Shown here: positions 17,791 through 59,360 of the stretch, piece by piece | Layout: each line of letters opens with the position of its first letter | Numbering within the stretch: the stretch's first letter is position 1 | NCBI GenBank assembly: GCA_032718475.1 | Contig: JAUCBJ010004223.1 | Span: 19,995 to 83,994, forward strand | DNA: 64,000 bases | Direction: 5' to 3' | DNA from: Nemertoderma westbladi | Taxonomy: Eukaryota; Animalia; Xenacoelomorpha | Notes under the pieces: generated by a model | Seen by the model: the letters and a program-made list of their open reading frames with translations, nothing else | Databases searched by the model: none | What the model was told of the DNA's origin: nothing | Made by a program: the position numbers and the translations under genes

Positions 17791-17792
17791 AT

Positions 17793-27203: not shown

Positions 27204-30200
27204 CTGAGCTACTGAACCACTTGACCAATAGGCGTACAAATGATAGAACAAATACGAATGAGAACTCAAAGCAATCTTTACAAAGTTAATTCGAATAAAA
27301 ATAAAATTTTGAAAATCCACGGCATTTGGAGAATATAATTCTATAGAGATTTCTAATTAATAATAAAGGCATTAGAGATTTCTAATTAATAATAAAGGCG
27401 TTAGAGATTTCTAATTATTAATAAAGGCATGAGAGATTTCTAATTAATAATAAAGGCATTAGAGATTTCTAATTAATAATAAAGGCATTAGAGATTTGTA
27501 ATTAATAATAAAGGCATTAGAGATTTCTAATTAATAATAAAGGCATTAGAGATTTCTAATTAATAATAAAGGCGTTAGAGATTTCTAATTATTAATAAAG
27601 GCATGAGAGATTTCTAATTAATAATAAAGGCATTAGAGATTTCTAATTAATAATAAAGGCATTAGAGATTTGTAATTAATAATAAAGGCATTAGAGATTT
27701 CTAATTAATAATAAAGGCATTAGAGATTTCTAATTAATAATAAAGGCATTAGAGATTTCTAATTAATAATAAAGGCGTTAGAGATTTCTAATTATTAATA
27801 AAGGCATGAGAGATTTCTAATTAATAATAAAGGCATTAGAGATTTCTAATTAATAATAAAGGCGTTAGAGATTTCTAATTATTAATAAAGGCATGAGAGA
27901 TTTTTAATTAATAATAAAGGCGTTAGAGATTTCTAATTAATAATAAAGGCATTAGAGATTTCTAATTAATAATAAAGGCGTTAGAGATTTGTAATTAATA
28001 ATAAAGGCATTAGAGATTTCTAATTAATAATAAAGGCATTAGAGATTTCTAATTAATAATAAAGGCGTTAGAGATTTATAATTAATAATAAAGGCATTAG
28101 AGATTTCTAATTAATAATAAAGGCATTAGAGATTTCTAATTAATAATAAAGGCATTATAGATTTCTAATTAATAATAAAGGCATTAGAGATTTCTAATTA
28201 ATAATAAAGGCATTAGAGATTTCTAATTAATAATAAAGGCACTAGAGATTTCTAATTAATATTAAAGGCATTAGAGATTTCTAATTAATAATAAAGGCAT
28301 TATAGATTTCTAATTAATAATAAAGGCATTACAGATTTCTAATTAATAATAAAGGCATTAGAGATTTCTAATTAATAATAAAGGCATTAGAGATTTCTAA
28401 TTAATAATAAAGGCATTAGAGATTTCTAATTAATAATAAAGGCGTTAGAGATTTCTAATTATTAATAAAGGCATGAGAGATTTCTAATTAATAATAAAGG
28501 CATTAGAGATTTCTAATTAATAATAAAGGCATTAGAGATTTCTAATTAATAATAAAGGCATTAGAGATTTCTAATTAATAATAAAGGCATTAGAGATTTA
28601 TAATTAATAATAAAGGCATTATAGATTTTTAATTAATAATAAAGGCGTTAGAGATTTCTAATTAATAATAAAGGCATTAGAGATTTATAATTAATAATAA
28701 AGGCACTAGAGATTTCTAATTAATAATAAAGGCATTAGAGATTTCTAATTAATAATAAAGGCATTATAGATTTCTAATTAATAATAAAGGCATTAGAGAT
28801 TTCTAATTAATAATAAAGGCATTAGAGATTTCTAATTAATAATAAAGGCATTAGAGATTTCTAATTAATAATAAAGGCGTTAGAGATTTCTAATTAATAA
28901 TAAAGGCATTATAGATTTCTAATTAATAATAAAGGCATTAGAGATTTCTAATTAATAATAAAGGCATTAGAGATTTCTAATTAATAATAAAGGCATTAGA
29001 GATTTCTAATTAATAATAAAGGCATTAGAGATTTCTAATTAATAATAAAGGCATTAGAGATTTCTAATTAATAATAAAGGCGTTAGAGATTTCTAATTAT
29101 TAATAAAGGCATTAGAGATTTCTAATTAATAATAAAGGCATTAGAGATTTCTAATTAATAATAAAGGCGATAGAGATTTCTAATTAATAATAAAGGCATT
29201 AGAGATTTCTAATTAATAATAAAGGCGTTAGAGATTTCTAATTAATAATAAAGGCATTAGAGATTTCTAATTAATAATAAAGGCAATAGAGATTTCTAAT
29301 TAATAATAAAGGCATTAGAGATTTATAATTAATAATAAAGGCATTATAGATTTTTAATTAATAATAAAGGCGTTAGAGATTTCTAATTAATAATAAAGGC
29401 ATTAGAGATTTATAATTAATAATAAAGGCACTAGAGATTTCTAATTAATAATAAAGGCATTAGAGATTTCTAATTAATAATAAAGGCATTATAGATTTCT
29501 AATTAATAATAAAGGCATTAGAGATTTCTAATTAATAATAAAGGCATTAGAGATTTCTAATTAATAATAAAGGCATTAGAGATTTCTAATTAATAATAAA
29601 GGCATTAGAGATTTCTAATTAATAATAAAGGCGTTAGAGATTTCTAATTATTAATAAAGGCATTAGAGATTTCTAATTAATAATAAAGGCATTAGAGATT
29701 TCTAATTAATAATAAAGGCGTTAGAGATTTCTAATTAATAATAAAGGCATTAGAGATTTCTAATTAATAATAAAGGCATTAGAGATTTCTAATTAATAAT
29801 AAAGGCATTAGAGATTTCTAATTAATAATAAAGGCATTAGAGATTTCTAATTAATAATAAAGGCATTATAGATTTTTAATTAATAATAAAGGCGTTAGAG
29901 ATTTCTAATTAATAATAAAGGCATTAGAGATTTATAATTAATAATAAAGGCACTAGAGATTTCTAATTAATAATAAAGGCATTATAGATTTCTAATTAAT
30001 AATAAAGGCGTTAGAGATTCTAATTAATAATAAAGGCATTAGAGATTTATAATTAATAATAAAGGCACTAGAGATTTCTAATTAATAATAAAGGCATTAT
30101 AGATTTCTAATTAATAATAAAGGCGTTAGAGATTTGTAATTAATAATAAAGGCATTAGAGATTTCTAATTAATAATAAAGGCGTTAGAGATTTCTAATTA

Positions 30201-33200
30201 ATAATAAAGGCATTAGAGATTTCTAATTATTAATAAAGGCATTAGAGATTTCTAATTAATAATAAAGGCGTTAGAGATTTCTAATTAATAATAAAGGCGT
30301 TAGAGATTTCTAATTAATAATAAAGGCATTAGAGATTTCTAATTAATAATAAAGGCAATAGAGATTTCTAATTAATAATAAAGGCATTAGAGATTTCTAA
30401 TTAATAATAAAGGCATTACAGATTTTTAATTAATAATACAGGCATTAGAGATTTATAATTAATAATAAAGGCATTAGAGATTTCTAATTAATAATAAAGG
30501 CATTAGAGATTTCTAATTAATAATAAAGGCATTAGAGATTTCTAATTAATAATAAAGGCAATAGAGATTTCTAATTAATAATAAAGGCATTAGAGATTTA
30601 TAATTAATAATAAAGGCATTATAGATTTTTAATTAATAATAAAGGCGTTAGAGATTTCTAATTAATAATAAAGGCATTAGAGATTTATAATTAATAATAA
30701 AGGCACTAGAGATTTCTAATTAATAATAAAGGCATTATAGATTTCTAATTAATAATAAAGGCGTTAGAGATTCTAATTAATAATAAAGGCATTAGAGATT
30801 TATAATTAATAATAAAGGCACTAGAGATTTCTAATTAATAATAAAGGCATTATAGATTTCTAATTAATAATAAAGGCGTTAGAGATTTGTAATTAATAAT
30901 AAAGGCATTAGAGATTTCTAATTAATAATAAAGGCGTTAGAGATTTCTAATTAATAATAAAGGCATTAGAGATTTCTAATTATTAATAAAGGCATTAGAA
31001 ATTTCTAATTAATAATAAAGGCGTTAGAGATTTCTAATTAATAATAAAGGCGTTAGAGATTTCTAATTAATAATAAAGGCATTAGAGATTTCTAATTAAT
31101 AATAAAGGCAATAGAGATTTCTAATTAATAATAAAGGCATTAGAGATTTCTAATTAATAATAAAGGCATTACAGATTTTTAATTAATAATACAGGCATTA
31201 GAGATTTATAATTAATAATAAAGGCATTAGAGATTTCTAATTAATAATAAAGGCATTAGAGATTTCTAATTAATAATAAAGGCATTAGAGATTTCTAATT
31301 AATAATAAAGGCAATAGAGATTTCTAATTAATAATAAAGGCATTAGAGATTTCTAATTAATAATAAAGGCATTATAGATTTCTAATTAATAATACAGGCA
31401 TTAGAGATTTCTAATTAATAATAAAGGCATTATAGATTTCTAATTAATAATAAAGGCATTAGAGATTTCTAATTAATAATAAAGGCATTAGAGATTTCTA
31501 ATTAATAATAAACGCATTAGAGAATTCTACTTAATAATAAAGGCATTAGAGATTTCTAATTAATAATAAAGGCATTAGAGATTTCTAATTAATATTAAAG
31601 GCGTTAGAGATTTCTAATTAATAATAAAGGCATTAGAGATTTGTAATTAATAATAAAGGCAATAGAGATTTCTAATTAATAATAAAGGCATTAGAGATTT
31701 CTAATTAATAATAAAGGCATTAGAGATTTCTAATTAATAATAAAGGCAATAGAGATTTCTAATTAATAATAAAGGCACTAGAGATTTCTAATTAATAATA
31801 AAGGCATTAGAGATTTCTAATTAATAATAAAGGCATTAGAGATTTCTAATTAATAATAAAGGCATTAGAGATTTCTAATTAATAATAAAGGCATTAGAGA
31901 TTTCTAATTAATAATAAAGGCATTAGAGATTTCTAATTAATAATAAAGGCAGTAGAGATTTCTAATTAATAATAAAGGCGTTAGAGATTTCTAATTAATA
32001 ATAAAGGCATTAGAGATTTCTAATTAATAATAAAGGCATTAGAGATTTCTAATTAATAATAAAGGCATTATAGATTTTTAATTAATAATACAGGCATTAG
32101 AGATTTCTAATTAATAATAAAGGCATTAGAGATTTCTAATTAATAATAAAGGCATTATAGATTTTTAATTAATAATAAAGGCATTAGAGATTTCTAATTA
32201 ATAATAAAGGCAATAGAGATTTCTAATTAATAATAAAGGCGTTAGAGATTTCTAATTAATAATAAAGGCGTTAGAGATTTCTAATTAATAATAAAGGCAT
32301 TAGAGATTTCTAATTAATAATAAAGGCATTAGAGATTTCTAATTAATAATAAAGGCATTATAGATTTTTAATTAATAATACAGGCATTAGAGATTTCTAA
32401 TTAATAATAAAGGCATTAGAGATTTCTAATTAATAATAAAGGCATTATAGATTTTTAATTAATAATAAAGGCGTTAGATATTTTTAATTAATAATAAAGG
32501 CATTAGAGATTTCTAATTAATAATAAAGGCATTAGAGATTTCTAATTAATAATAAAGGCATTAGAGATTTCTAATTAATAATAAAGGCATTAGAGATTTC
32601 TAATTAATAATAAAGGCATTATAGATTTTTAATTAATAATACAGGCATTAGAGATTTCTAATTAATAATAAAGGCATTAGAGATTTCTAATTAATAATAA
32701 AGGCATTAGAGATTTCTAATTAATAATAAAGGCATTAGAGATTTCTAATTAATAATAAAGGCATTAGAGATTTCTAATTAATAATAAAGGCATTAGAGAT
32801 TTCTAATTAATAATAAAGGCATTAGAGATTTCTAATTAATAATAAAGGCATTATAGATTTTTAATTAATAATACAGGCATTAGAGATTTCTAATTAATAA
32901 TAAAGGCATTAGAGATTTCTAATTAATAATAAAGGCATTATAGATTTTTAATTAATAATAAAGGCATTAGAGATTTCTAATTAATAATAAAGGCAATAGA
33001 GATTTCTAATTAATAATAAAGGCGTTAGAGATTTCTAATTAATAATAAAGGCGTTAGAGATTTCTAATTAATAATAAAGGCATTAGAGATTTCTAATTAA
33101 TAATAAAGGCATTAGAGATTTCTAATTAATAATAAAGGCATTATAGATTTTTAATTAATAATACAGGCATTAGAGATTTCTAATTAATAATAAAGGCATT

Positions 33201-36200
33201 AGAGATTTCTAATTAATAATAAAGGCATTATAGATTTTTAATTAATAATACTGGCATTAGAGATTTCTAATTAATAATAAAGGCATTAGAGATTTTTAAT
33301 TAATAATACAGGCATTAGAGATTTCTAATTAATAATAAAGGCATTATAGATTTTTAATTAATAATAAAGGCATTAGAGATTTCTAATTAATAATAAAGGC
33401 ATTAGAGATTTTTAATTAATAATACAGGCATTAGAGATTTCTAATTAATAATACAGGCATTAGAGATTTTTAATTAATAATACAGGCATTAGAGATTTCT
33501 AATTAATAATAAAGGCATTAGAGATTTTTAATTAATAATACAGGCATTAGAGATTTCTAATTAATAATACAGGCATTAGAGATTTCTAATTAATAATAAA
33601 GGCATTAGAGATTTTTAATTAATAATACAGGCATTAGAGATTTCTAATTAATAATAAAGGCATTATAGATTTCTAATTAATAATAAAGGCATTATAGATT
33701 TTTAATTAATAATACAGGCATTAGAGATTTCTAATTAATAATAAAGGCATTATAGATTTTTAATTAATAATAAAGGCATTAGAGATTTCTAATTAATAAT
33801 AAAGGCATTAGAGATTTCTAATTAATAGTAAAGGCATTAGAGATTTCTAATTAATAATAAAGGCATTAAAGATTTCTAATTAATAATAAAGGCATTAGAG
33901 ATTTCTAATTAATAATAAAGGCATTATAGATTTTTAATTAATAATACAGGCATTAGAGATTTCTAATTAATAATAAAGGCATTAGAGATTTCTAATTAAT
34001 AATAAAGGCATTAGAGATTTCTAATTAATAATAAAGGCATTAGAGATTTCTAATTAATAATAAAGGCATTAGAGATTTCTAATTAATAATAAAGGCATTA
34101 GAGATTTCTAATTAATAATAAAGAAATTATAGATTTCTAATTAATAATAAAGGCATTAGAGATTTCTAATTAATAATAAAGGCATTAGAGATTTCTAATT
34201 AATAATAAAGGCATTAGAGATTTCTAATTAATAATAAAGGCATTAGAGATTTCTAATTAATAATAAAGGCATTAGAGATTTCTAATTAATAATAAAGGCA
34301 ATAGAGATTTCTAATTAATAATAAAGGCGTTAGAGATTTCTAATTAATAATAAAGGCATTAGAGATTTCTAATTAATAATAAAGGCATTAGAGATTTCTA
34401 ATTAATAATAAAGGCATTATAGATTTTTAATTAATAATACAGGCATTAGAGATTTCTAATTAATAATAAAGGCATTAGAGATTTCTAATTAATAATAAAG
34501 GCATTAGAGATTTCTAATTAATAATAAAGGCATTAGAGATTTCTAATTAATAATAAAGGCATTAGAGATTTCTAATTAATAATAAAGGCATTAGAGATTT
34601 CTAATTAATAATAAAGGCATTATAGATTTCTAATTAATAATAAAGGCATTAGAGATTTCTAATTAATAATAAAGGCATTAGAGATTTCTAATTAATAATA
34701 AAGGCATTAGAGATTTCTAATTAATAATAAAGGCATTAGAGATTTCTAATTAATAATAAAGGCATTAGAGATTTCTAATTAATAGTAAAGGCATTAGAGA
34801 TTTCTAATTAATAATAAAGGCATTAGAGATTTCTAATTAATAATAAAGGCATTAGAGATTTCTAATTAATAATAAAGGCATTAGAGATTTCTAATCAATA
34901 ATAAAGGCATTAGAGATTTCTAATTAATAATAAAGACATTAGAGATTTCTAATTAATAATAAAGGCATTAGAGATTTCTAATTAATAATAAAGGCAATAG
35001 AGATTTCTAATTAATAATAAAGGCATTAGAGATTTCTAATTAATAATAAAGGCATTAGAGATTTCTAATTAATAATAAAGGCATTAGAGATTTCTAATTA
35101 ATAATAAAGGCATTAGAGATTTCTAATTAATAATAAAGGCATTAGAGATTTCTAATTAATAATAACAAAGGCAATAGAGATTTCTAATTAATAATAAAGG
35201 CATTAGAGATTTCTAATTAATAATAAAGGCATTAGAGATTTCTAATTAATAATAAAGGCATTAGAGATTTCAAATTAATAGTAAAGGCATTAGAGATTTC
35301 TTTAATAATAAAGGCATTAGGTATTTCTAATTAATAATAAAGGCATTCGAGATTTCTAATTAATAACAACAAAGGCATTAGAGATTTCTAATTAATAATA
35401 AAGGCATTAGAGATTTCTAATTAATAATAAAGGCGTTAGAGATTTCTAATTAATAATAACAAAGGCAATAGAGATTTCTAATTAATAATAAAGGCATTAA
35501 AGATTTCTAATTAATAATAACAAAGGCAATGGAGATTTCTAATTAATAATAAAGGCATTAGAGATTTCTAATTAATAATAACAAAGGCATTAGAGATTTC
35601 TAATTAATAATAAAGGCATTAGAGATTTGTAATTATTAATAAAGGCATTAGAGATTTCTAATTAATAATAAAGGCATTAGAGATTTCTAATTAATAATAA
35701 AGGCATTAGAGATTTCTAATTAATAACAAAGGCATTAGAGATTTCTAATTAATAATAAAGGCATTAGAGATTTCTAATTAATAATAAAGGCATTAGAGAT
35801 TTCTAATTAATAGTAAAGGCATTAGAGATTTCTAATTAATAATAAAGGCATTAGAGATTTCTAATTAATAATAAAGGCATTAGAGATTTCTAATTAATAA
35901 TAAAGGCATTAGAGATTTCTAATTAATAATAAAGGCATTAGAGATTTCTAATTAATAATAAAGGCATTAGAGATTTCTAATTAATAATAAAGACATTAGA
36001 GATTTCTAATTAATAATAAAGGCAATAGAGATTTCTAATTAATAATAAAGGCATTAGAGATTTCTAATTAATAATAAAGGCATTAGAGATTTCTAATTAA
36101 TAATAAAGGCAATAGAGATTTCTAATTAATAATAAAGGCATTAGAGATTTCTAATTAATAATAAAGGCATTAGAGATTTATAATTAATAATAAAGGCATT

Positions 36201-39200
36201 AGAGATTTCTAATTAATAATAAAGCCATTAGAGATTTCTAATTAATAATAAAGGCATTAGAGATTTCTAATTAATAATAAAGGCATTAGAGATTTCTAAT
36301 TAATAATAAAGGCATTAGAGATTTCTAATTAATAATAAAGCCATTAGAGATTTCTAATTAATAATAAAGGCATTAGAGATTTCTAATTAATAATAAAGGC
36401 AATAGAGATTTCTAATTAATAATAAAGGCATTAGAGATTTCTAATTAATAATAAAGGCATTAGAGATTTCTAATTAATAATAAAGGCGTTAGAGATTTCT
36501 AATTAATAATAAAGGCATTAGAGATTTCTAATTAATAATAAAGGCATTAGAGATTTCTAATTAATAATAAAGGCATTAGAGATTTCTAATTAATAATAAA
36601 GGCATTAGAGATTTCTAATTAATAATAAAGCCATTAGAGATTTCTAATTAATAATAAAGGCATTAGAGATTTCTAATTAATAATAAAGCCATTAGAGATT
36701 TCTAATTAATAATAAAGGCATTAGAGATTTCTAATTAATAATAAAGCCATTAGAGATTTCTAATTAATAATAAAGGCATTAGAGATTTCTAATTAATAAT
36801 AAAGGCGTTAGAGATTTCTAATTAATAATAAAGGCATTAGAGATTTCTAATTAATAATAAAGGCAATAGAGATTTCTAATTAATAATAAAGGCATTAGAG
36901 ATTTCTAATTAATAATAAAGGCATTAGAGATTTCTAATTAATAATAAAGGCATTAGAGATTTCTAATTAATAATAAAGGCATTAGAGATTTCTAATTAAT
37001 AATAAAGGCATTAGAGATTTCTAATTAATAATAAAGGCAATAGAGATTTCTAATTAATAATAAAGGCATTAGAGATTTCTAATTAATAATAAAGGCATTA
37101 GAGATTTCTAATTAATAATAAAGGCATTAGAGATTTCTAATTAATAATAAAGGCAATAGAGATTTCTAATTAATAATAAAGGCATTAGAGATTTCTAATT
37201 AATAATAAAGGCATTAGAGATTTCTAATTAATAGTAAAGGCATTAGAGATTTCTAATTAATAATAAAGGCATTAGAGATTTCTAATTAATAATAAAGGCA
37301 TTAGAGATTTCTAATTAATAATAAAGGCATTAGAGATTTCTAATTAATAATAAAGGCATTAGAGATTTCTAATTAATAGTAAAGGCATTAGAGATTTCTA
37401 ATTAATAATAAAGGCATTAGAGATTTCTAATTAATAATAAAGGCATTAGAGATTTCTAATTAATAATAAAGGCATTAGAGATTTCTAATTAATAATAAAG
37501 GCATTAGAGATTTCTAATTAATAATAAAGGCATTAAAGATTTCTAATTAATAATAAAGGCATTAGAGATTTCTAATTAATAATAAAGGCATTAGAGATTT
37601 CTAATTAATAATAAAGGCATTAGAGATTTCTAATTAATAATAAAGGCATTAGAGATTTCTAATTAATAATAAAGGCATTAGAGATTTCTAATTATTAATA
37701 AAGGCATTAGATATTTCTAATTAATAATAAAGGCATTAGAGATTTCTAATTAATAATAAAGGCATTAGAGATTTCTAATTAATAATAAAGGCAATAGAGA
37801 TTTCTAATTATTAATAAAGGCATTAGAGATTTCTAATTAATAATAAAGGCATTAGAGATTTCTAATTAATAATAAAGGCATTAGAGACTTCTAATTAATA
37901 ATAAAGGCATTAGAGATTTCTAATTAATAATAAAGGCATTAGAGATTTCTAATTAATAATAAAGGCATTAGAGATTTCTAATTAATAATAAAGGCATTAG
38001 AGATTTGTAATTAATAATAAAGGCATTAGAGATTTCTAATTAATAATAAAGGCATTAGAGATTTCTAATTAATAATAAAGGCGTTAGAGATTTCTAATTA
38101 ATAATAAAGGCGTTAGAGATTTGTAATTAATAATAAAGGCATTAGAGATTTCTAATTAATAATAAAGGCATTAGAGATTTCTAATTAATAATAAAGGCGT
38201 TAGAGATTTCTAATTAATAATAACAAAGGCAATAGAGATTTCTAATTAATAATAAAGGCATTAGAGATTTCTAATTAATAATAAAGGCATTAGAGATTTC
38301 TAATTAATAATAAAGGCATTAGAGATTTCTAATTAATAATAAAGGCATTAGAGATTTCTAATTAATAATAAAGGCATTAGAGATTTCTAATTAATAATAA
38401 AGGCATTAGAGATTTCTAATTATTAATAAAGGCATTAGAGATTTCTAATTAATAATAAAGGCATTAGAGATTTTTAATTAATAATAAAGGCATTAGAGAC
38501 TTCTAATTAATAATAAAGGCAATAGAGATTTCTAATTAATAATAAAGGCATTAGAGATTTCTAATTAATAATAAAGGCATTAGAGATTTCTAATTAATAA
38601 TAAAGGCATTAGAGATTTCTAATTAATAATAAAGGCAATAGAGATTTCTAATTAATAATAAAGGCATTAGAGATTTATAATTAATAATAAAGGCATTAGA
38701 GATTTCTAATTAATAATAAAGGCAATAGAGATTTCTAATTATTAATAAAGGCATTAGAGATTTCTAATTAATAATAAAGGCATTAGAGATTTCTAATTAA
38801 TAATAAAGGCATTAGAGATTTTTAATTAATAATAAAGGCATTAGAGATTTCTAATTAATAATAAAGGCATTAGAGATTTCTAATTAATAATAAAGGCATT
38901 AGAGATTTTTAATTAATAATAAAGGCATTAGAGATTTCTAATTAATAATAAAGGCATTAGAGATTTCTAATTAATAATAAAGGCATTAGAGATTTTTAAT
39001 TAATAATAATGGCATTAGAGACTTCTAATTAATAATAAAGGCAATAGAGATTTCTAATTATTAATAAAGGCATTAGAGATTTCTAATTAATAATAAAGGC
39101 ATTAGAGATTTTTAATTAATAATAAAGGCATTAGAGACTTCTAATTAATAATAAAGGCAATAGAGATTTCTAATTAATAATAAAGGCATTAGAGATTTCT

Positions 39201-42200
39201 AATTAATAATAAAGGCATTAGAGATTTCTAATTAATAATAAAGGCATTAGAGATTTCTAATTAATAATAAAGGCAATAGAGATTTCTAATTAATAATAAA
39301 GGCATTAGAGATTTATAATTAATAATAAAGGCATTAGAGATTTCTAATTAATAATAAAGGCAATAGAGATTTCTAATTATTAATAAAGGCATTAGAGATT
39401 TCTAATTAATAATAAAGGCATTAGAGATTTTTAATTAATAATAAAGGTATTAGAGACTTCTAATTAATAATAAAGGCAATAGAGATTTCTAATTAATAAT
39501 AAAGGCATTAGAGATTTCTAATTAATAATAAAGGCATTAGAGATTTCTAATTAATAATAAAGGCATTAGAGATTTCTAATTAATAATAAAGGCGTTAGAG
39601 ATTTGTAATTAATAATAAAGGCACTAGAGATTTCTAATTAATAATAAAGGCATTAGAGATTTCTAATTAATAATAAAGGCATTAGAGATTTCTAATTAAT
39701 AATAAAGGCGTTAGAGATTTGTAATTAATAATAAAGGCACTAGAGATTTCTAATTAATAATAAAGGCATTCGAGATTTCTAATTAATAATAAAGGCGTTA
39801 GAGATTTGTAATTAATAATAAAGGCATTAGAGATTTCTAATTAATAATAAAGGCATTAGAGATTTCTAATTAATAATAAAGGCGTTAGAGATTTGTAATT
39901 AATAATAAAGGCACTAGAGATTTCTAATTAATAATAAAGGCATTAGAGATTTCTAATTAATAATAAAGGCATTAGAGATTTCTAATTAATAATAAAGGCG
40001 TTAGAGATTTGTAATTAATAATAAAGGCACTAGAGATTTCTAATTTAATAAAGGCATTCGAGATTTCTAATTAATAATAAAGGCGTTAGAGATTTGTAAT
40101 TAATAATAAAGGCACTAGAGATTTCTAATTAATAATAAAGGCATTAGAGATTTCTAATTAATAATAAAGGCATTAGAGATTTCTAATTAATAATAAAGGC
40201 ATTATAGATTTTTAATTAATAATAAAGGCATTAGAGATTTCTAATTAATAACAACAAAGGCATTAGAGATTTCTAATTAATAATAAAGGCATTAGAGATT
40301 TCTAATTAATAATAAAGGCATTCGAGATTTCTAATTAATAATAAAGGCGTTAGAGATTTGTAATTAATAATAAAGGCATTAGAGATTTGTAATTAATAAT
40401 AAAGGCATTAGAGATTTCTAATTAATAATAAAGGCGTTAGAGATTTCTAATTAATAATAAAGGCAATAGAGATTTCTAATTAATAATAAAGGCAATAGAG
40501 ATTTCTAATTATTAATAAAGGCATTAGAGATTTCTAATTAATAATAAAGGCATTAGAGATTTTTAATTAATAATAAAGGCATTAGAGACTTCTAATTAAT
40601 AATAAAGGCAATAGAGATTTCTAATTAATAATAAAGGCATTAAAGATTTCTAATTAATAATAAAGGCATTAGAGATTTTTAATTAATAATAAAGGCATTA
40701 GAGACTTCTAATTAATAATAAAGGCAATAGAGATTTCTAATTAATAATAAAGGCATTAGAGATTTCTAATTAATAATAAAGGCATTAGAGATTTCTAATT
40801 ATTAATAAAGGCATTAGAGATTTCTAATTAATAATAAAGGCATTAGAGATTTTTAATTAATAATAAAGGCATTAGAGACTTCTAATTAATAATAAAGGCA
40901 ATAGAGATTTCTAATTAATAATAAAGGCATTAGAGATTTCTAATTAATAATAAAGGCATTAGAGATTTCTAATTAATAATAAAGGCATTACAGATTTCTA
41001 ATTAATAATAAAGGCATTAGAGATTTCTAATTAATAATAAAGGCATTAGAGATTTCTAATTAATAATAAAGGCATTAGAGATTTCTAATTAATAATAAAG
41101 GCATTAGAGATTTCTAATTAATAATAAAGGCATTAGAGATTTCTAATTAATAATAAAGGCATTAGAGATTTTTAATTAATAATAAAGGCATTAGAGATTT
41201 CTAATTATTAATAAAGGCATTAGAGATTTCTAATTAATAATAAAGGCATTAGAGATTTCTAATTATTAATAAAGGCATTAGAGATTTCTAATTAATAATA
41301 AAGGCATTAGAGATTTTTAATTAATAATAAAGGCATTAGAGATTTCTAATTATTAATAAAGGCATTAGAGATTTCTAATTAATAATAAAGGCATTAGAGA
41401 TTTTTAATTAATAATAAAGGCATTAGAGATTTCTAATTATTAATAAAGGCATTAGAGATTTCTAATTAATAATAAAGGCATTAGAGATTTCTAAGTATTA
41501 ATAAAGCATTAGAGATTTCTAATTAATAATAAAGGCATTAGAGATTTTTAATTAATAATAAAGGCATTAGAGATTTCTAATTATTAATAAAGGCATTAGA
41601 GATTTCTAATTAATAATAAAGGCATTAGAGATTTCTAATTAATAATACAGGCATTAGAGATTTCTAATTAATAATAAAGGCATTAGAGATTTCTAATTAA
41701 TAATACAGGCATTAGAGATTTCTAATTAATAATAAAGGCATTAGAGATTTCTAATTAATAATACAGGCATTAGAGATTTCTAATTAATAATAAAGGCATT
41801 AGAGATTTTTAATTAATAATAAAGGCATTAGAGATTTATAATTAATAATAAAGGCATTAGAGATTTCTAATTAATAATAAAGGCATTAGAGATTTCTAAT
41901 TAATAATAAAGGCATTAGAGATTTCTAATTAATAATAAAGGCATTAGAGATTTCTAATTAATAATAAAGGCATTAGAGATTTCTAATTAATAATAAAGGC
42001 ATTAGAGATTTCTAATTAATAATAAAGGCATTAGAGATTTCTAATTAATAATACAGGCATTAGAGATTTCTAATTAATAATAAAGGCATTAGAGATTTCT
42101 AATTAATAATACAGGCATTAGAGATTTCTAATTAATAATAAAGGCATTAGAGATTTCTAATTAATAATACAGGCATTAGAGATTTCTAATTAATAATAAA

Positions 42201-45200
42201 GGCATTAGAGATTTTTAATTAATAATAAAGGCATTAGAGATTTCTAATTAATAATAAAGGCATTAGAGATTTCTAATTAATAATAAAGGCATTAGAGATT
42301 TCTAATTAATAATAAAGGCATTAGAGATTTCTAATTAATAATAAAGGCATTAGAGATTTCTAATTAATAATAAAGGCATTAGAGATTTCTAATTAATAAT
42401 AAAGGCATTAGAGATTTCTAATTAATAATAAAGGCATTAGAGATTTCTAATTAATAATAAAGGCATTAGAGATTTCTAATTATTAATAAAGGCATTAGAG
42501 ATTTCTAATTAATAATAAAGGCATTAGAGATTTTTAATTAATAATAAAGGCATTAGAGATTTCTAATTAATAATACAGGCATTAGAGATTTCTAATTAAT
42601 AATAAAGGCATTAGAGATTTCTAATTAATAATACAGGCATTAGAGATTTCTAATTAATAATAAAGGCATTAGAGATTTTTAATTAATAATAAAGGCATTA
42701 GAGATTTCTAATTAATAATAAAGGCATTAGAGATTTCTAATTAATAATAAAGGCATTAGAGATTTCTAATTAATAATAAAGGCATTAGAGATTTCTAATT
42801 AATAATAAAGGCATTAGAGATTTCTAATTAATAATAAAGGCATTATAGATTTCTAATTAATAATAAAGGCAATAGAGATTTCTAATTAATAATAACAAAG
42901 GCAATAGAGATTTCTAATTAATAATAAAGGCATTAGAGATTTCTAATTAATAATAAAGGCGTTAGAGATTTCTAATTAATAATAAAGGCATTAGAGATTT
43001 CTAATTAATAATAAAGGCAATAGAGATTTCTAATTAATAATAACAAAGGCAATAGAGATTTCTAATTAATAATAAAGGCATTAGAGATTTCTAATTAATA
43101 ATAAAGGCATTAGAGATTTCTAATTAATAATAAAGGCATTAGAGATTTCTAATTAATAATAAAGGCAATAGAGATTACTAATTAATAATAACAAAGGCAA
43201 TAGAGATTTCTAATTAATAATAAAGGCATTAGAGATTTCTAATTAATAATAAAGGCGTTAGAGATTTCTAATTAATAATAAAGGCATTAGAGATTTCTAA
43301 TTAATAATAAAGGCAATAGAGATTTCTAATTAATAATAACAAAGGCAATAGAGATTTCTAATTAATAATAAAGGCATTAGAGATTTCTAATTAATAATAA
43401 AGGCATTAGAGATTTCTAATTAATAATAAAGGCATTAGAGATTTCTAATTAATAATAAAGGCATTCGAGATTTCTAATTAATAATAAAGGCAATAGAGAT
43501 TTCTAATTAATAATAAAGGCATTAGAGATTTCTGATTAATAATAAAGGCATTAGAGATTTCTAATTAATAATAAAGGCATTAGAGATTTCTAATTAATAA
43601 TAAAGGCATTAGAGATTTCTAATTAATAATAAAGGCATTAGAGATTTCTAATTAATAATAAAGGCATTATAGATTTTTAATTAATAATACAGGCATTAGA
43701 GATTTCTAATTAATAATAAAGGCATTAGAGATTTCTAATTAATAATAAAGGCATTAGAGATTTCTAATTAATAATAAAGGCATTAGAGATTTCTAATTAA
43801 TAATATAGGCATTAGAGATTTCTAATTAATAATAAAGGCATTAGAGATTTCTAATTAATAATAAAGGCAATAGAGATTTCTAATTAATAATAAAGGCATT
43901 AGAGATTTCTAATTAATAATAAAGGCATTAGAGATTTCTAATTAATAATAAAGGCAATAGAGATTTCTAATTAATAATAAAGGCAATAGAGATTTCTAAT
44001 TAATAATAAAGGCATTAGAGATTTCTAATTAATAATAAAGGCATTAGAGATTTCTAATTAATAATAAAGGCATTAGAGATTTCTAATTAATAATAAAGGC
44101 GTTAGAGATTTCTAATTAATAATAAAGGCATTAGAGATTTCTAATTAATAATAAAGGCATTAGAGATTTCTAATTAATAATAAAGGCATTAGAGATTTCT
44201 AATTAATAATAAAGGCATTAGAGATTTCTAATTAATAATAAAGGCATTAGAGATTTCTAATTAATAATAAAGGCATTAGAGATTTCTAATTAATAATAAA
44301 GGCATTAGAGATTTCTAATTAATAATAAAGCCATTAGAGATTTCTAATTAATAATAAAGGCATTAGAGATTTCTAATTAATAATAAAGGCATTAGAGATT
44401 TCTAATTATTAATAAAGGCATTAGATATTTCTAATTAATAATAAAGCCATTAGAGATTTCTAATTAATAATAAAGGCATTAGAGATTTCTAATTAATAAT
44501 AAAGGCATTAGAGATTTCTAATTAATAATAAAGGCATTAGAGATTTCTAATTATTAATAAAGGCATTAGATATTTCTAATTAATAAGTGTTAAGGATTGG
44601 GACACGTCCGGGATAAACAAATTCTCCTCCACTACGGCGGCATTAGATAACGCTGACTCCTCGGATCCAAATCTACAAAAATTAACGGCGTTATCGGCGA
44701 CGGACTGCAGCTCAACTATTATCAAATGGTTATCACCATAATATTTGTGCACACAAACAATGTTGGCGACCAACAACGGACACTTGCACCTGTAGGTTAT
44801 GTGGATCACCAGCTGTAAACACATCCACCACTACGAATCCTGATGCTACTGTAACTGCCATTTTTCTATGAAAATAACACATCATGACACATCATCCCTT
44901 TTATATCGTAATCTTTTTATTTCTGTAATCACTGTACTGTATATAACAAATTTTTAATTTCTAATTTTAATCTGGTGCTTTATAAATATTTTAACCCGAT
45001 AACATATCGAATAAACGCCTCTACATTCAATATCGAATGATTGAATTATAGACCTAACGCATGTATAATATAATTTTAATAATTAATTGAATTAAACCAA
45101 GGGGTGCGGGTGCTAGGGGGGGGGGGGGGGGTGGGGGGGTGGTAGACAGAGAGGGGGTGGGGGGGGGGGGGGGGGTGTGGGGTGTGGTTGGTATAGAAAC

Positions 45201-53481: not shown

Positions 53482-53544
53482 AAACAGAGTTAGGGTAAGT
53501 GTTGGGGTCTAAGTTAGACCCAACCACTTACCCTAACTCTGTTT
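53482..53544. repeat. Long near-perfect palindrome (hairpin)
   Basis: aaacagagttagggtaagtg...gggtctaa-g-ttagaccc...cacttaccctaactctgttt. Confidence 0.85.
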
Positions 53545-53655
53545 GTTTTGGTAATTAATATTTATACAATGTTACCGCTGGTAATCGCTTACCGAATTAT
53601 CTCTAATTTATTATATAAACAAACTACAGTAGAGCCATCTGTATCAACATTCACC

Positions 53656-55104
53656 ATGAAAAAATACTTTAAATTGTTTTTGATACTATTTTTGATATTT
53701 ATCTTATATGCCGTGGCCAATTTCGGCCTTGGGTCAGTCAGAGATCGCTATTCAATATCTCCAGATTCAAGCGAAAACAGGGGCAGGAGCGATATATACA
53801 ACTTTGTTAAAAGGTACCCGACCATTCTCATGTGTCCATCCTCGGTCTTTTCCGAGCTGAGGAAAAACTACAAAGACGAAACAAATCTCGAGTCTATTGA
53901 CTACTCTCAACCGGCATCCAATAACACGCATTCAGCTCGTATGACCCGTGCCATTCTGTTCTACTTACCACTGGAACTAGCCGACACTTATATATATCAT
54001 TTCAAATGGGTTTATCGCAGCTGGATCGAAATGCAGAAAACAGAACCAGCACTCTGGCGTACTGACTTGATAATCTTTATCAGTATGGCACACCCAGAGG
54101 CGTTTCAGCGCAATGGCAGTGCTGAGTTCCTCACGAAAATGAACTGTTCATTCAAGAACTTACGTCTCTCGAAGGAGGAGAAGCCCATGTGTACGCTAAT
54201 CGCGCATGAAAACCTATCATCACGTAAACTGTTGAGGCCAGGAAGGGAATTCCAGAGCAATAATCGTACCGAGAAGTACAAGTTTCTGCTCGATGGCCGT
54301 GTTAACATACTGTTGGATGATCCCGACAATTTGGCACCATTCTATAACTTCGTCAAAAAACAGACTCAATCTTACAGGTTCTTGCACTCAGTATTGGTGG
54401 CATTTGAAGGCTATGCGTACTTGAAGAGAGCCGGATATGACTTCGTCATACGCAGTGACATGGACATCTTTTTGACGCCATTGTGTGGCCGGTGGTTGCC
54501 TGCTAAATGTGACGACTTCTATGTGGGACATGGTGGATATTCCGATAAGTTTAATGTTCGTCGGTTGGATAGAATTGCACACAATATTGGGTGGGAGACA
54601 TCATCCCTGGAGAATATTGGCTCGACTTGGTACTCTACAGTAGACCAATTTCGGTTGGTTTCATACTTGACCTTGTTTAGCATGGCCTATTTATCGGCCG
54701 AAGAGTTCACTGAGCCCGAGAAGTTAGAGAAACTTGGCACACAATTATGGCCCTACTGGCACTACGGGGTTTTATCAATGTACGGTCAAAGTTTGGCCAT
54801 TAATCACTTGATCGCCACGAAGCAACTCAACATTGTTCACTTAAAAGATCAACTCGACTTTCCATCATCAATCAATATCTCTATACATAAAATCATTCAT
54901 GTGCACACATATCACAACGCTGAAATATTTTCTAAGTTCGCTTTCAGTTTAGGCAAGTATGATGAAATTGATTTGGACTCGAAGACACTCAAGAAAGAGG
55001 AAGATGTACCTATTTATGCATTGAAAATGGCAATGGAAGGAAAACGAATGAAATACAAAGAGTTAACCAATTTGTTGGATCAAGTGATCTCGAATAAGCT
55101 TTAG
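53656..55104 (+). CDS. Intronless type II membrane protein, putative glycosyltransferase-like (DxD), DUF7164-like
   Basis: ACCATGA start, N-terminal hydrophobic anchor (LFLILFLIFILYAVANFGL), RSDMDIFLTP, YVGHGGY, NIGSTWY, WPYWHYGVLSMYG; AATAAA at ~55201. Family name is from recollection only. Confidence 0.75.
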   Translation: MKKYFKLFLILFLIFILYAVANFGLGSVRDRYSISPDSSENRGRSDIYNFVKRYPTILMCPSSVFSELRKNYKDETNLESIDYSQPASNNTHSARMTRAILFYLPLELADTYIYHFKWVYRSWIEMQKTEPALWRTDLIIFISMAHPEAFQRNGSAEFLTKMNCSFKNLRLSKEEKPMCTLIAHENLSSRKLLRPGREFQSNNRTEKYKFLLDGRVNILLDDPDNLAPFYNFVKKQTQSYRFLHSVLVAFEGYAYLKRAGYDFVIRSDMDIFLTPLCGRWLPAKCDDFYVGHGGYSDKFNVRRLDRIAHNIGWETSSLENIGSTWYSTVDQFRLVSYLTLFSMAYLSAEEFTEPEKLEKLGTQLWPYWHYGVLSMYGQSLAINHLIATKQLNIVHLKDQLDFPSSINISIHKIIHVHTYHNAEIFSKFAFSLGKYDEIDLDSKTLKKEEDVPIYALKMAMEGKRMKYKELTNLLDQVISNKL

Positions 55105-55250: not shown

Positions 55251-55929
55251 GTATCCAACACGAACCATTATGGTCACTATTTGGAAAGCTGTTATGAAGC
55301 TTCTTTTTTACTTATAATCGTATAGCAGGCATCAAAATGCAGGATAACAAAGGTCATTATTTAAATGTGAACAAAAAAAATTCAAATCAATTCCTAAAAA
55401 ACGACTAAACTTAAAAAATAAGCCAATGACCATATGGTACCTTGATGTAAGCGATACTACCATGTGTTTCAACTTGAAGTTAACCATATTGTGTATCATA
55501 CCGATAGTTTAATTAATTAATCTGTTTGCGGGGCGAGCCACGTAGTCTGTGAATTTAGTTTGTGAGAATTGTCCGTCTGTCCATCTGACTCACTCAATGT
55601 TTGAAAGTCAATAATTATCTTAATTTTTCAAACAAAAAGTTTAGAAAGTTTTAAGAATTACATCTAATTTATTTCAGAGGAGGCTCCGTAAATCACGACG
55701 TTCACAGTTTCAGTTTTCACAGTCGGTAATGCCTATTTGCCTAATTGCTACGCCCGAAGTTGCCAAGTTGACAACCTGAAACGACCTTGGAAAAAAACCT
55801 CCCTATGATATTTAATATATTTAATTAATATCACCTGGCAGCAATACCGAGCTGAATATTTATTTATTTGTACTTCCCTCCTGTTTCACTCTAGCATACT
55901 TGAGGCCGTTAGGTCGACTGCGAGTGTCA

Positions 55930-56030
55930 GGGGCTAGTGGCTGAGCTGGTTAGCGCTACTGATGAGGCCTGTTAGGCCGAAACGTGCGTATAGCGCTGGT
56001 TCAACCCCCGGTGACGCGCTCCCATTTTTT
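55930..56030 (+). ncRNA. tRNA-like Pol III unit containing a type I hammerhead ribozyme (core 55952-55997)
   Basis: A box TGGCTGAGCTGG; stem I AGCGCTA/TAGCGCT; CTGATGA; stem II GGCCT-gtt-AGGCC; GAAA; stem III ACG-tg-CGT; cleavage triplet GTA; B box GGTTCAACCCC; T6 terminator. Confidence 0.85.
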
Positions 56031-56239
56031 CCACTTCTGAACAAACCCATAATATTACACCTTTAATTACAGTTGCAACAGCTCATCTCCAATTTATTTA
56101 GTTGTTAAAAAGGCAGTAAGTCTGGCCCTACCGGTAAATGACAGGAATGGAAGTTACAAACTACGCGTAGCTACGCGTAGGCCTACGCGTAGGGCAAAAA
56201 GATTTACCCCATAATGCGATGTGATCGATGCGATGGATG

Positions 56240-59200
56240 GGGTGTGTACAAAACAAAGACCTAAGACCCTACAAAAGTACGACCCCCCCTGGTACAAAAG
56301 TAAGACTCCCCTGGTACAAAAGTAAGACCTCCCGTGGTACAAAAGTAAGACCCCCCCCCCGGTACAAAAGTAAGACCCCCACTGGTACAAAAGTAAGACC
56401 CCCCTGGTACAAAAGTAAGACCCCCACTGGTACAAAAGTAAGACCCCCCTGGTACAAAAGTAAGACCCCCCTGGTACAAAAGTAAGACCCCCCTGGTACA
56501 AAAGTAAGACCCCCCCTGGTACACAAAGACCCCCCTGGTACAAAAGTAAGACCCCCCTGGTACAAAAGTAAGACCCCCCTGGTACAAAAGTAAGACCCCC
56601 CTGGTACAAAAGTAAGACCCCCGTGGTACAAAAGTAAGACCCCCCCCCCCCCCGGTACAAAAGTAAGACCCTCACTGGTACAAAAGTAAGACCCCCCTGG
56701 TACAAAAGTAAGACCCCCCCTGGTACAAAAGTAAGACCCCCCGGTACAAAAGTAAGACCCCCCTGGTACAAAAGTAAGACCCCCTGGTACACAAAGACCC
56801 CCCTGGTACAAAAGTAAGACCCCCCTGGTACAAAAGTAAGACCCCCCTGGTACACAAAGACCCCCCTGGTACAAAAGTAAGACCCCCCTGGTACAAAAGT
56901 AAGACCCCCCTGGTACAAAAGAAAGACCCCCCTGGTACAAAAGTAAGACCCCCCCCCCCGGTACAAAAGTAAGACCCCCACTGGTACAAAAGTAAGACCC
57001 CCCTGGTACAAAAGTAAGACCCCCACTGGTACAAAAGTAAGACCCCCCTGGTACAAAAGTAAGACCCCCCTGGTACAAAAGTAAGACCCCCCTGGTACAA
57101 AAGTAAGACCCCCCTGGTACAAAAGTAAGACTCCCCTGGTACAAAAGTAAGACTCCCCTGGTACAAAAGTAAGACCTCCCGTGGTACAAAAGTAAGACCC
57201 CCCTGGTACAAAAGTAAGACCCCCCTGGTACAAAAGTAAGACCCCCCTGGTACAAAAGTAAGACCCCCCTGGTACAAAAGTAAGACTCCCCTGGTACAAA
57301 AGTAAGACTCCCCTGGTACAAAAGTAAGACCTCCCGTGGTACAAAAGTAAGACCCCCTGGTACAAAAGTAAGACCCCCACTGGTACAAAAGTAAGACCCC
57401 CCTGGTACAAAAGTAAGACCCCCCCCCCCCCGGTACAAAAGTAAGACCCCCACTGGTACAAAAGTAAGACCCCCCTGGTACAAAAGTAAGACCCCCACTG
57501 GTACAAAAGTAAGACCCCCCTGGTACAAAAGTAAGACCCCCCTGGTACAAAAGTAAGACCCCCCTGGTACAAAAGTAAGACCCCCCTGGTACAAAAGTAA
57601 GACTCCCCTGGTACAAAAGTAAGACCTCCCGTGGTACAAAAGTAAGACCCCCCTGGTACAAAAGTAAGACCCCCACTGGTACAAAAGTAAGACCCCCCTG
57701 GTACAAAAGTAAGACCCCCCTGGTACAAAAGTAAGACCCCCCTGGTACAAAAGTAAGACCCCCCTGGTACAAAAGTAAGACTCCCCTGGTACAAAAGTAA
57801 GACTCCCCTGGTACAAAAGTAAGACCTCCCGTGGTACAAAAGTAAGACCCCCCTGGTACAAAAGTAAGACCCCCCTGGTACAAAAGTAAGACCCCCCTGG
57901 TACAAAAGTAAGACACCCCTGGTACAAAAGTAAGACTCCCCTGGTACAAAAGTAAGACTCCCCTGGTACAAAAGTAAGACCTCCCGTGGTACAAAAGTAA
58001 GACCCCCCTGGTACAAAAGTAAGACTCCCCTGGTACAAAAGTAAGACCTCCCGTGGTACAAAAGTAAGACCCCCCCCCCCCCGGTACAAAAGTAAGACCC
58101 CCCTGGTACAAAAGTAAGACCCCCACTGGTACAAAAGTAAGACCCCCCTGGTACAAAAGTAAGACCCCCCTGGTACAAAAGTAAGACCCCCCTGGTACAA
58201 AAGTAAGACCCCCCCTGGTACACAAAGACCCCCCTGGTACAAAAGTAAGACCCCCACTGGTACAAAAGTAAGACCCCCCTGGTACAAAAGTAAGACCCCC
58301 CTGGTACAAAAGTAAGACCCCCCTGGTACAAAAGTAAGACCCCCACTGGTACAAAAGTAAGACCCCCCTGGTACAAAAGTAAGACCCCCCTGGTACAAAA
58401 GTAAGACCCCTCTGGTACAAAAGTAAGACCCCCCTGGTACCAAAGTAAGACTCCCCTGGTACAAAAGTAAGACTCCCCTGGTACAAAAGTAAGACCTCCC
58501 GTGGTACAAAAGTAAGACCCCCCTGGTACAAAAGTAAGACCCCCCTGGTACAAAAGTAAGACCCCCCTGGTACAAAAGTAAGACCCCCCTGGTACAAAAG
58601 TAAGACTCCCCTGGTACAAAAGTAAGACTCCCCTGGTACAAAAGTAAGACCTCCCGTGGTACAAAAGTAAGACCCCCCTGGTACAAAAGTAAGACTCCCC
58701 TGGTACAAAAGTAAGACCTCCCGTGGTACAAAAGTAAGACCCCCCCCCCCCGGTACAAAAGTAAGACCCCCACTGGTACAAAAGTAAGACCCCCCTGGTA
58801 CAAAAGTAAGACCCCCACTGGTACAAAAGTAAGACCCCCCTGGTACAAAAGTAAGACCCCCCTGGTACAAAAGTAAGACCCCCCTGGTACAAAAGTAAGA
58901 CCCCCCCTGGTACACAAAGACCCCCCTGGTACAAAAGTAAGACCCCCCTGGTACAAAAGTAAGACCCCCCTGGTACAAAAGTAAGACCCCCCTGGTACAA
59001 AAGTAAGACCCCCGTGGTACAAAAGTAAGACCCCCCCCCCCCCGGTACAAAAGTAAGACCCTCACTGGTACAAAAGTAAGACCCCCCTGGTACAAAAGTA
59101 AGACCCCCCTGGTACAAAAATAAGACCCCCTGGTACAAAAGTAAGACCCCCCTGGTACAAAAGTAAGACCCCCTGGTACACAAAGACCCCCCTGGTACAA

Positions 59201-59360
59201 AAGTAAGACCCCCCTGGTACAAAAGTAAGACCCCCCTGGTACAAAAGAAAGACCCCCCTGGTACAAAAGTAAGACCCCCCCTGGTACAAAAGTAAGACCC
59301 CCCTGGTACAAAAGCAAAAGTAATGGTAAAAAGTACAAAGGTAAGACCGCCAAGACCCAT
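56240..59360. repeat. 22-bp minisatellite (~140 copies), probably expanded subterminal repeat of a DNA transposon
   Basis: (ggtacaaaagtaagacccccct)n, preceded by gggtgtgtacaaaacaaagacc and degenerating at both ends. Confidence 0.93.

What the first reader, a model, noticed from the sequence alone, without database searches (positions are those of the whole stretch)
55930..56030. Hammerhead ribozyme replacing the anticodon arm of a tRNA-like Pol III gene
Seen: a complete type I hammerhead (stem I AGCGCTA/TAGCGCT, CUGAUGA, stem II GGCCU/AGGCC, GAAA, minimal stem III ACG-UG-CGU, GUA cleavage site after 55990). It lies between an A box (55938-55949) and a B box (55998-56008), with acceptor-like pairing GGGGC/GCUCC and a T6 terminator (56025-56030). 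Established: short-stem-III type I hammerheads occur in Penelope-like elements and retrozymes and often work as dimers; Schistosoma SMalpha repeats combine Pol III boxes with a hammerhead. Inference: a ~100-nt self-promoting, self-cleaving RNA (SINE/retrozyme hybrid). Stem I overlaps the D-arm and T-arm positions, so tRNA-like and ribozyme folds would compete.
Basis: partly seen in the sequence, partly recalled or inferred. Interest (0 to 1): 0.9.

Follow-up and report, generated by a model that had tools for sequence, protein, structure and literature searches.

The report
Ribozyme nested inside a tRNA promoter
This is one damaged copy of an abundant 341-base repeat of a small animal, likely a jumping element, in which a predicted self-cutting hammerhead RNA sits between the two halves of a likely tRNA-type promoter instead of behind it, a new twist on a known kind of element that has not been tested at the RNA level.

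Summary
The hammerhead, A box, B box and T6 run are at the stated positions and beyond chance. The roughly 100-nt feature is not the whole element. Public contigs show a high-copy repeat over about 55807-56100. One contig closes it into a 341-nt loop, of which the window holds one monomer lacking 63 nt. Across 1,220 and 633 contigs in two runs, no core, stem I or box position reaches 1% variation, and 84-97% of depth has a palindromic loop III suited to dimer cleavage. There is no tRNA cloverleaf in register. Instead the A- and B-box bases are predicted to pair and extend stem I. Best reading: a non-LTR retrozyme, probably moved by Penelope enzymes, close to Schistosoma Sm-alpha. It differs in that the cut site splits the promoter and a terminator follows. 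Cleavage, Pol III transcription and circles were not shown. The scan noted tRNA-head plus hammerhead repeats in other animals; none of the notes shown describes a nested one. Verdict: new variant of a known kind.

The parts
55818..56100 (+). One monomer of a 341-nt high-copy repeat (retrozyme-like unit), lacking 63 nt; the 6 bases at 56095-56100 repeat 55818-55823
   Evidence: X4 record 18 closes 56094 to 55818 with 0 substitutions, one 1-nt gap and 63 extra nt; arithmetic and end redundancy; raised summed depth over 55807-56105 in X1, X3, X5
55915..55916 (+). Site of a 63-nt deletion in this copy relative to the full unit
   Evidence: X4 record positions 208-270 have no match; loose ends at 55915 and 55916 in X1 and X3
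55892..55913 (+). Decayed look-alike of the hammerhead 5' half (possible old internal duplication; core broken)
   Evidence: 21 of 26 columns match 55951-55976; 1 of 5000 shuffles reaches the score; segment chosen by eye
55924..55929 (+). 5' strand of a predicted closing stem with 56012-56017, around the likely Pol III start (about 55927, inferred from the usual +12 position of box A)
   Evidence: pair probability 0.27-0.91 depending on the 5' end chosen; PMC7279448 passages
55938..55949 (+). A box of a type 2 Pol III promoter; its 3' part is predicted to form the distal stem I and loop 1 of the hammerhead
   Evidence: no variant at 1% in X1 or X3
55952..55997 (+). Type I hammerhead: stem I 7 bp, stem II 5 bp, stem III 2 bp with a near-palindromic loop; predicted cut between 55990 and 55991
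   Evidence: major family base at 55986 makes loop III a perfect palindrome
55998..56008 (+). B box; its first 5 bases are predicted to pair with A-box bases 55943-55947
   Evidence: full match to published consensus; pair probability 0.5-0.7 with the family-major base and a 5' leader, 0.26-0.34 for the window copy, at most 0.04 without leader
56025..56030 (+). T6 run, likely Pol III terminator; the only run of 4 or more T in the window copy
   Evidence: retained in loose-end consensus of diverged copies in X1, X3, X5
56031..56094 (+). A/C-rich 3' part of the unit, ending 104 nt after the cut site in an AT-rich junction
   Evidence: mixed loose ends behind 56100 (24 contigs, agreement 0.47)

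Best explanation
The feature is the core of one internally deleted copy of a high-copy 341-nt repeat that likely spreads as a non-LTR retrozyme using Penelope-type reverse transcriptase, and its hammerhead, predicted to cut itself as a dimer, sits between A and B boxes that likely form a Pol III promoter. Shown: the motifs, the repeat, the unit length (one contig), the conservation pattern. Inferred steps: (1) unit-length or longer RNA arises from tandem copies, by read-through of T6 or from an outside polymerase; (2) two hammerheads pair through the palindromic loop III and cut; (3) the cut-to-cut monomer starts with the B box and ends with the A box, so only a circle or an uncut multimer carries an intact promoter; (4) a Penelope-type enzyme copies such a template from the A/C-rich end near 56094 into AT-rich DNA, which gives copies like this one with the ribozyme and promoter whole in the middle; (5) most Pol III transcripts would stop at T6 as a roughly 100-nt RNA with one hammerhead. 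The tRNA ancestry survives as promoter boxes, not as a cloverleaf.
For: Unit of 341 nt, 46% GC in the window copy, inside the 170-400 nt range of animal retrozymes (PMC7229834). Closed loop in X4; back-joints 56077, 56099 and 56100 to 55814 or 55848 in X1 DNA contigs show tandem junctions. 2,232 and 1,149 contigs laid in X1 and X3 over 661 bp, which include a second repeat; summed depth 247,000-290,000 over the hammerhead against 36 in the flank at 56221-56260 in X1. Helix sizes and the palindromic loop fit the canonical metazoan type I form, not the Penelope minimal form (PMC4209133). The loop III base is A in 84%, 97% and 84% of depth in X1, X3, X5. The dimer model is -41.4 or -42.4 kcal/mol against -27.8 for two monomers. 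Variation of 1% or more at 0 of 7 constrained CpG positions against 5 of 9 others (p 0.029, post hoc). Penelope-like traits: three opposite-strand joints, depth falling off gradually at the 5' end, AT-rich junction, A/C-rich 3' end (PMC11167929 and PMC8557442 passages).
Against: No RNA evidence. X4 is only guessed to be RNA, has depth 5.5 and also holds the neighbouring repeat at depth 5.1, so its loop may be a collapsed DNA tandem. The tandem joints seen in X1 have depths of only 19-39, so arrays may be rare there. No Penelope RT or GIY-YIG motif in the window by a crude pattern search, and no genome to search. No clear target-site duplication. T6 should block Pol III from making unit-length RNA, which the model has to work around. 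Summed depth is not a copy number, and low variation may partly reflect a young family. The window copy itself is predicted to misfold (stem I 0.04-0.27; 0.0 in the whole deleted unit), and even with the major base stem I is 0.14 in that deleted unit.
Confidence: 0.62

Rival explanations
1. The repeat is the end repeat (pLTR) of an autonomous, protein-coding Penelope-like element, and most copies are truncated insertions of it.
Against: The unit closes on itself at 341 nt in X4; helix II is 5 bp with no extra base after the core, unlike the minimal Penelope form; no RT ORF next to this copy; only 1-2% of laid X1 and X3 contigs run on into unlike sequence, though these contigs are short.
Confidence: 0.15
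2. One reading: the roughly 100-nt A box-hammerhead-B box-T6 module is itself a SINE that moves alone, and the 341-nt unit is a later carrier.
For: Several long contigs match only 55920-56024 at 82-87% identity, for example X1 record 5 (98 of 695 nt), X3 record 9 (101 of 2,084 nt) and X5 record 20 with sequence on both sides; the module has its own start and terminator.
Against: Loose ends before the module read the unit's own missing segment in both X1 and X3 (agreement 0.61-0.84), so alignments stop there because of this copy's deletion; depth continues over 55807-56100; no A-tail; table 8 was cut (1,901 rows not shown), so module-only copies could not be counted.
Confidence: 0.12
3. The repeat spreads at the DNA level as a satellite or passenger, and the ribozyme and promoter are inactive relics of the founder copy.
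For: The window is rich in satellites; no RNA holder on record was available to test expression; a young family looks conserved without selection.
Against: This copy is solitary and 3' flanks are mixed across contigs; the variants that rose in frequency avoid the core, stem I and both boxes and keep stem II as a wobble.
Confidence: 0.11

Closest known systems
Non-LTR retrozymes of animals (PMC7229834; PMC7761336; bioRxiv 10.64898/2026.07.22.740005)
   Same: Non-coding unit of 170-400 nt with one canonical type I hammerhead, monomers and tandems, short palindromic helix III, proposed Penelope mobilisation; reported from rotifers among other phyla.
   Different: PMC7761336 says retrozymes seem to lack promoters; this unit has A and B boxes and a terminator wrapped round the ribozyme. 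Circles and cleavage are shown for those, not for this one.
Sm-alpha / Sj-alpha SINE-like hammerhead repeats of Schistosoma (via PMC6765202, PMC2770079, PMC2576457)
   Same: Pol III A and B boxes and a type I hammerhead in a high-copy repeat.
   Different: There the promoter is followed by the ribozyme (PMC6765202) and the tRNA part is intact enough to be called as tRNA-Gln (PMC2770079). Here the ribozyme lies between the boxes, the cut splits them, no tRNA is called, and T6 follows the B box. I could not read the original 1998 paper or see its figures.
Penelope-like element pLTRs with minimal hammerheads (PMC4209133; PMC11167929)
   Same: Type I hammerhead predicted to need a dimer; AT-rich insertion, inverted joints, A/C-rich end.
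   Different: Helix sizes are canonical rather than minimal; no RT or endonuclease ORF beside this copy.
Helenus TRIMs and tRNA-derived SINEs (PMC10886601)
   Same: Captured tRNA sequence keeps boxes A and B while tRNA structure decays.
   Different: No LTR pair or primer site seen here; no ribozyme is reported for Helenus in the passages read; the tRNA head is not at the 5' end of this unit.

Membership tests
Type I hammerhead ribozyme | Conserved core and three helices with open helix I | tested here: met
   descriptor hit at 55959, 0 in 300 shuffles; core positions below 1% variation in X1 and X3
Type I hammerhead ribozyme | Reaches an Rfam hammerhead gathering score | tested here: not met
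   none at gathering; best 20.7 bits against Hammerhead_3, no Hammerhead_1 match at E<=10
Type I hammerhead ribozyme | Self-cleavage at the NUH site | not testable with these tools
   needs an in vitro assay or RNA-end data
Non-LTR retrozyme | Non-coding unit of about 170-400 nt with a type I hammerhead, GC below 50% | tested here: met
   341 nt; GC 0.458 in the window copy; no ORF of 100 aa overlaps it
Non-LTR retrozyme | Tandem copies with intact hammerheads | tested here: inconclusive
   closed loop in X4 and three low-depth back-joints in X1; window copy is solitary; no long reads
Non-LTR retrozyme | Expressed as linear and circular unit-length RNA | not testable with these tools
   only contigs were served and none is on record as RNA
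Non-LTR retrozyme | Coexists with, and is related to, a Penelope-like element | not testable with these tools
   no genome held; none seen in the window
Sm-alpha-like SINE | Pol III A and B boxes in the repeat | tested here: met
Sm-alpha-like SINE | Complete promoter (tRNA-like head) followed by the hammerhead | tested here: not met
   hammerhead lies between the boxes; no tRNA called; layout of Sm-alpha from PMC6765202 and PMC2770079 passages
Classical tRNA-derived SINE | Element begins at the tRNA head and ends in an A-rich or simple-repeat tail | tested here: not met
   A box lies 184 nt inside the full unit; no run of 4 or more A in the window copy
Penelope pLTR with minimal hammerhead | Helix II 7-8 bp, helix I 4-5 bp, extra base before helix II | tested here: not met
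   5 bp, 7 bp, no extra base (PMC4209133)
Penelope pLTR with minimal hammerhead | Flanks an RT plus GIY-YIG ORF | tested here: inconclusive
   none beside this copy; other copies could not be followed into their flanks
tRNA gene | Cloverleaf in register | tested here: not met
   acceptor 3 of 7, D 2 of 4, T 3 of 5; ARAGORN and Rfam negative

The most novel reading that the evidence does not exclude
The element carries its own small Pol III gene whose roughly 100-nt product is a helper ribozyme: it pairs through the palindromic loop III with the hammerhead of unit-length RNA from lone copies and switches on cleavage in trans. The same bases serve as DNA promoter boxes and as the RNA's distal stem I, and the cut splits the promoter so that only circles or uncut multimers seed active copies. 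An unrelated repeat in L001-L004 may have reached the same nested design with a type III hammerhead.
Probability: 0.17. Interest if true: 0.8.

Novelty: new variant of a known kind. Interest (0 to 1): 0.5.

Why it matters
How animal retrozymes are transcribed, and how dimer-dependent hammerheads in lone copies get cut, are open points in the papers read (PMC7761336, PMC7229834, PMC4209133). A unit with an internal Pol III cassette, a terminator and a cut site that splits the promoter makes both testable with a 100-nt and a 341-nt construct. It would also be a natural case of one sequence read both as promoter boxes and as ribozyme structure. If only the best explanation holds, it is a tidy new architecture within a known class.

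Tried and rejected
No whole genome is held, so copy number, target-site duplications and a Penelope partner could not be examined. No second copy in the window. No RNA holder listed among 9 runs. Collection scans with a hammerhead-plus-B-box pattern: viral contigs 0; metagenomes 4, all an unrelated repeat with no blastn match at E<=1; prokaryote genomes 1, a chance match with no hammerhead stems. Family-specific pattern in viral contigs: 0. Scan notes: nothing by sequence, genome or relatives or in two of four word searches. Folding z-scores of the module are unremarkable (-0.71 for 102 nt, -1.61 for the 46-nt hammerhead) and are not used as support. Relaxed ARAGORN calls a tRNA over the module but also 69 others in the window, so it was discarded as noise. 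A step up in depth near the cut site was rejected as evidence for truncated copies because the common mismatch at 55986 can clip alignments there. The X4 loop was not taken as evidence of circular RNA. A longer outer stem seemed possible from loose-end consensus sequences, but the two sides are not phased, so it is not claimed. Host: the neighbouring gene's best named relatives are Brachionus proteins at 48%, too distant to name the animal.

Full report
Observation. A type I hammerhead descriptor gives one hit in the window, at 55959, with a 7-bp stem I, and none in 300 dinucleotide shuffles of 25.8 kb on both strands. The chance of an A box and a B box each within 30 nt of a fixed site is about 1e-5 (patterns recalled and set after seeing the sequence). 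Against the consensus in PMC7279448 (passages) the B box matches fully and the A box matches with one extra base; the gap between boxes is 48 bp against the usual 30-40. T6 is the only run of four or more T in the copy, but such runs occur in 2.3% of background 30-mers. Rfam gives nothing at gathering score and only a weak Hammerhead_3 match at E 0.14. ARAGORN finds no tRNA.

Setting. The window is animal DNA rich in satellites, with two LINE-type RT ORFs and a DUF7164 ORF ending about 700 nt upstream of the repeat. The best named relatives of that ORF are Brachionus proteins at 48%, so a rotifer or similar animal is plausible but not shown. No genome is held and no second copy lies in the window.

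The real unit. Five of nine listed runs hold the stretch; four were laid, all as contigs. Summed depth rises from 36 (X1) and 45 (X3) at 56221-56260 to 247,000-290,000 and 92,000-134,000 over the hammerhead, and stays high from about 55807 to 56100. The tool warns that this is no copy number; with 1,220 and 633 distinct contigs on the 145-nt module, hundreds to thousands of copies is my inference. One 371-nt contig in X4 runs 55987-56094, then 55818-55915, then 63 nt absent from the window, then 55916-56016, overlapping itself by 30 nt. That is a closed loop of 341 nt with no substitution against the window. The window therefore holds one monomer with an internal deletion. X4 is only guessed to be RNA, has depth 5.5 and also holds the neighbouring repeat, so the loop may be tandem DNA. 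X1 DNA contigs have three end-to-start joints at depth 19-39, and X1 and X3 have three opposite-strand joints. Flanks behind 56100 are mixed, and depth falls more gradually at the 5' end.

Conservation. At a 1% threshold, 7 places vary in X1 and 13 in X3. They lie in loop II, loop III, one stem II pair that becomes a G-U wobble, and 56009-56025. None lies in the core, stem I, the stem III pairs or either box. X5 has 42 contigs and shows extra single-contig changes, including core positions 55965 (8.6% of depth), 55979, 55982 and 55983. The base at 55986 is A in 84%, 97% and 84% of depth, making loop III a perfect palindrome; the window and X4 carry the minor G. Of CpG positions, 0 of 7 constrained and 5 of 9 others reach 1% in X1 or X3 (p 0.029, post hoc). 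This suggests selection on source copies, but a young family could give a similar picture. T6 persists in the loose-end consensus of diverged copies while the bases just before it change.

Structure. No cloverleaf forms in tRNA register: acceptor 3 of 7, D stem 2 of 4, T stem 3 of 5; a shifted D-arm-like hairpin has 4 of 4 pairs and overlaps stem I. For the window copy, stem I has probability 0.04-0.27 in transcripts running to T6, though 0.9 in a nascent chain ending at 55997. With the major base it is 0.89-0.98. With a few leader bases, A-box bases 55943-47 pair with B-box bases 55998-56002 (0.5-0.7 with the major base), leaving a short bulge next to stem I, where type I hammerheads carry loop 1; without leader this pairing is at most 0.04. 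The dimer model scores -41.4 or -42.4 kcal/mol against -27.8 for two monomers. These are predictions only.

Mechanism. Best reading (0.62): a non-LTR retrozyme. Longer RNA from tandem copies is cut by dimeric hammerheads, may be circularised by a host ligase as shown in vitro for other retrozymes (PMC7229834), and is copied by a Penelope-type enzyme from the A/C-rich end into AT-rich DNA, as shown in vitro for a Poseidon element (PMC11167929). Because the cut lies between the boxes, a cut linear monomer has a split promoter. The window copy has both promoter and ribozyme whole in its middle, which needs a circular or uncut template (inference). T6 implies that most Pol III transcripts are about 100 nt and carry one hammerhead. 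What that RNA does is open; the boldest reading is a trans partner for dimer cleavage (0.17). Rivals: pLTR of a coding Penelope element (0.15), a 100-nt SINE (0.12), an inactive passenger (0.11).

Comparison. Helix sizes match the canonical metazoan type I form and not the Penelope minimal form (PMC4209133, parts 1-2 of 4). Animal retrozymes match in size and layout (PMC7229834: passages and the Discussion; supplement unreadable; bioRxiv 10.64898/2026.07.22.740005: part 1 of 5 and passages, no mention of tRNA or promoter in the main text, supplements closed), but are said to lack promoters (PMC7761336 passages). Sm-alpha has Pol III boxes, with the promoter followed by the ribozyme (PMC6765202 passages; PMC2576457 passages) and a tRNA part still called by tRNAscan (PMC2770079 passages). 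Helenus keeps boxes without tRNA structure (PMC10886601 passages). PMC11167929, PMC8557442 and PMC6155905 were read as passages. The 1998 Sm-alpha paper and the 2017 paper on dimeric Penelope hammerheads were not held. I recall engineered hammerheads placed between the boxes of tRNA genes, but one search did not surface such a paper.

Novelty. Ten literature searches (listings and abstract starts only, apart from the papers above) showed no natural hammerhead nested between A and B boxes. Repbase, Dfam, most subscription journals and all figures were out of reach, and a rotifer retrozyme is pictured in PMC7761336, so prior description is not excluded. Earlier scan notes list tRNA-head plus hammerhead repeats in other animals; they are unchecked and none of those shown describes nesting. 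In passing, all 4 metagenome hits are one unrelated repeat with a type III-like hammerhead (Rfam 27.6 bits, E 0.0025, below gathering; 2 of the 4 scanned) between an A-box-like loop and a B box.

Verdict. A real feature and a new variant of a known kind: a retrozyme or Sm-alpha-like repeat with the ribozyme inside the promoter and a terminator behind it. No RNA-level step was shown. Interest 0.5.

Noticed in passing
L001-L004, positions 1 to about 127: Four metagenome contigs start in the same roughly 124-nt repeat end, unrelated in sequence to the window element. It has a type III-like hammerhead (Rfam Hammerhead_3, 27.6 bits, E 0.0025) whose stem I looks like a tRNA D-arm with an A-box-like loop, followed by a B box and a CA-containing end before differing flanks. 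One flank encodes a WD40 repeat and looks fungal by eye. Possibly an LTR-type or Helenus-like element with the same nested design.
   Followed up: partly
window 25223-25145, minus strand: A second A box and B box pair with a tRNA-like D arm and a T6 run behind it, no hammerhead; likely a tRNA pseudogene or SINE head.
   Followed up: partly
window 56099-56220: A second high-copy repeat directly after the unit, with palindromic 10-12-nt repeats of variable number; summed depth 32,000-113,000 in X1.
   Followed up: partly
window 55892-55913: Decayed look-alike of the hammerhead's 5' half inside the same unit, hinting that the 341-nt unit arose from a duplication.
   Followed up: partly
window 53518-55104 (+): Uninterrupted 528-codon ORF with DUF7164; best named relatives are Brachionus proteins at 48%.
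   Followed up: partly
window 12060-13877 (+), 15858-17792 (-), 21408-22085 (-): Two LINE-type reverse transcriptase ORFs (Pfam RVT_1) and a LINE-like end fragment without a Pfam match.
   Followed up: partly
window 1-2657, 3736-5612, 7819-11720, 22053-23448, 27344-44586, 56270-59314: Large satellite arrays: a 49-bp unit with 100% identical copies, a 16-bp unit containing a telomere-like hexamer, two different 22-bp units, and a 29-bp unit in two arrays, one of 17 kb.
   Followed up: no
window 55932-56024, across copies: Several low-level variants among copies are transitions at CpG sites, which may point to CpG methylation in this animal.
   Followed up: no
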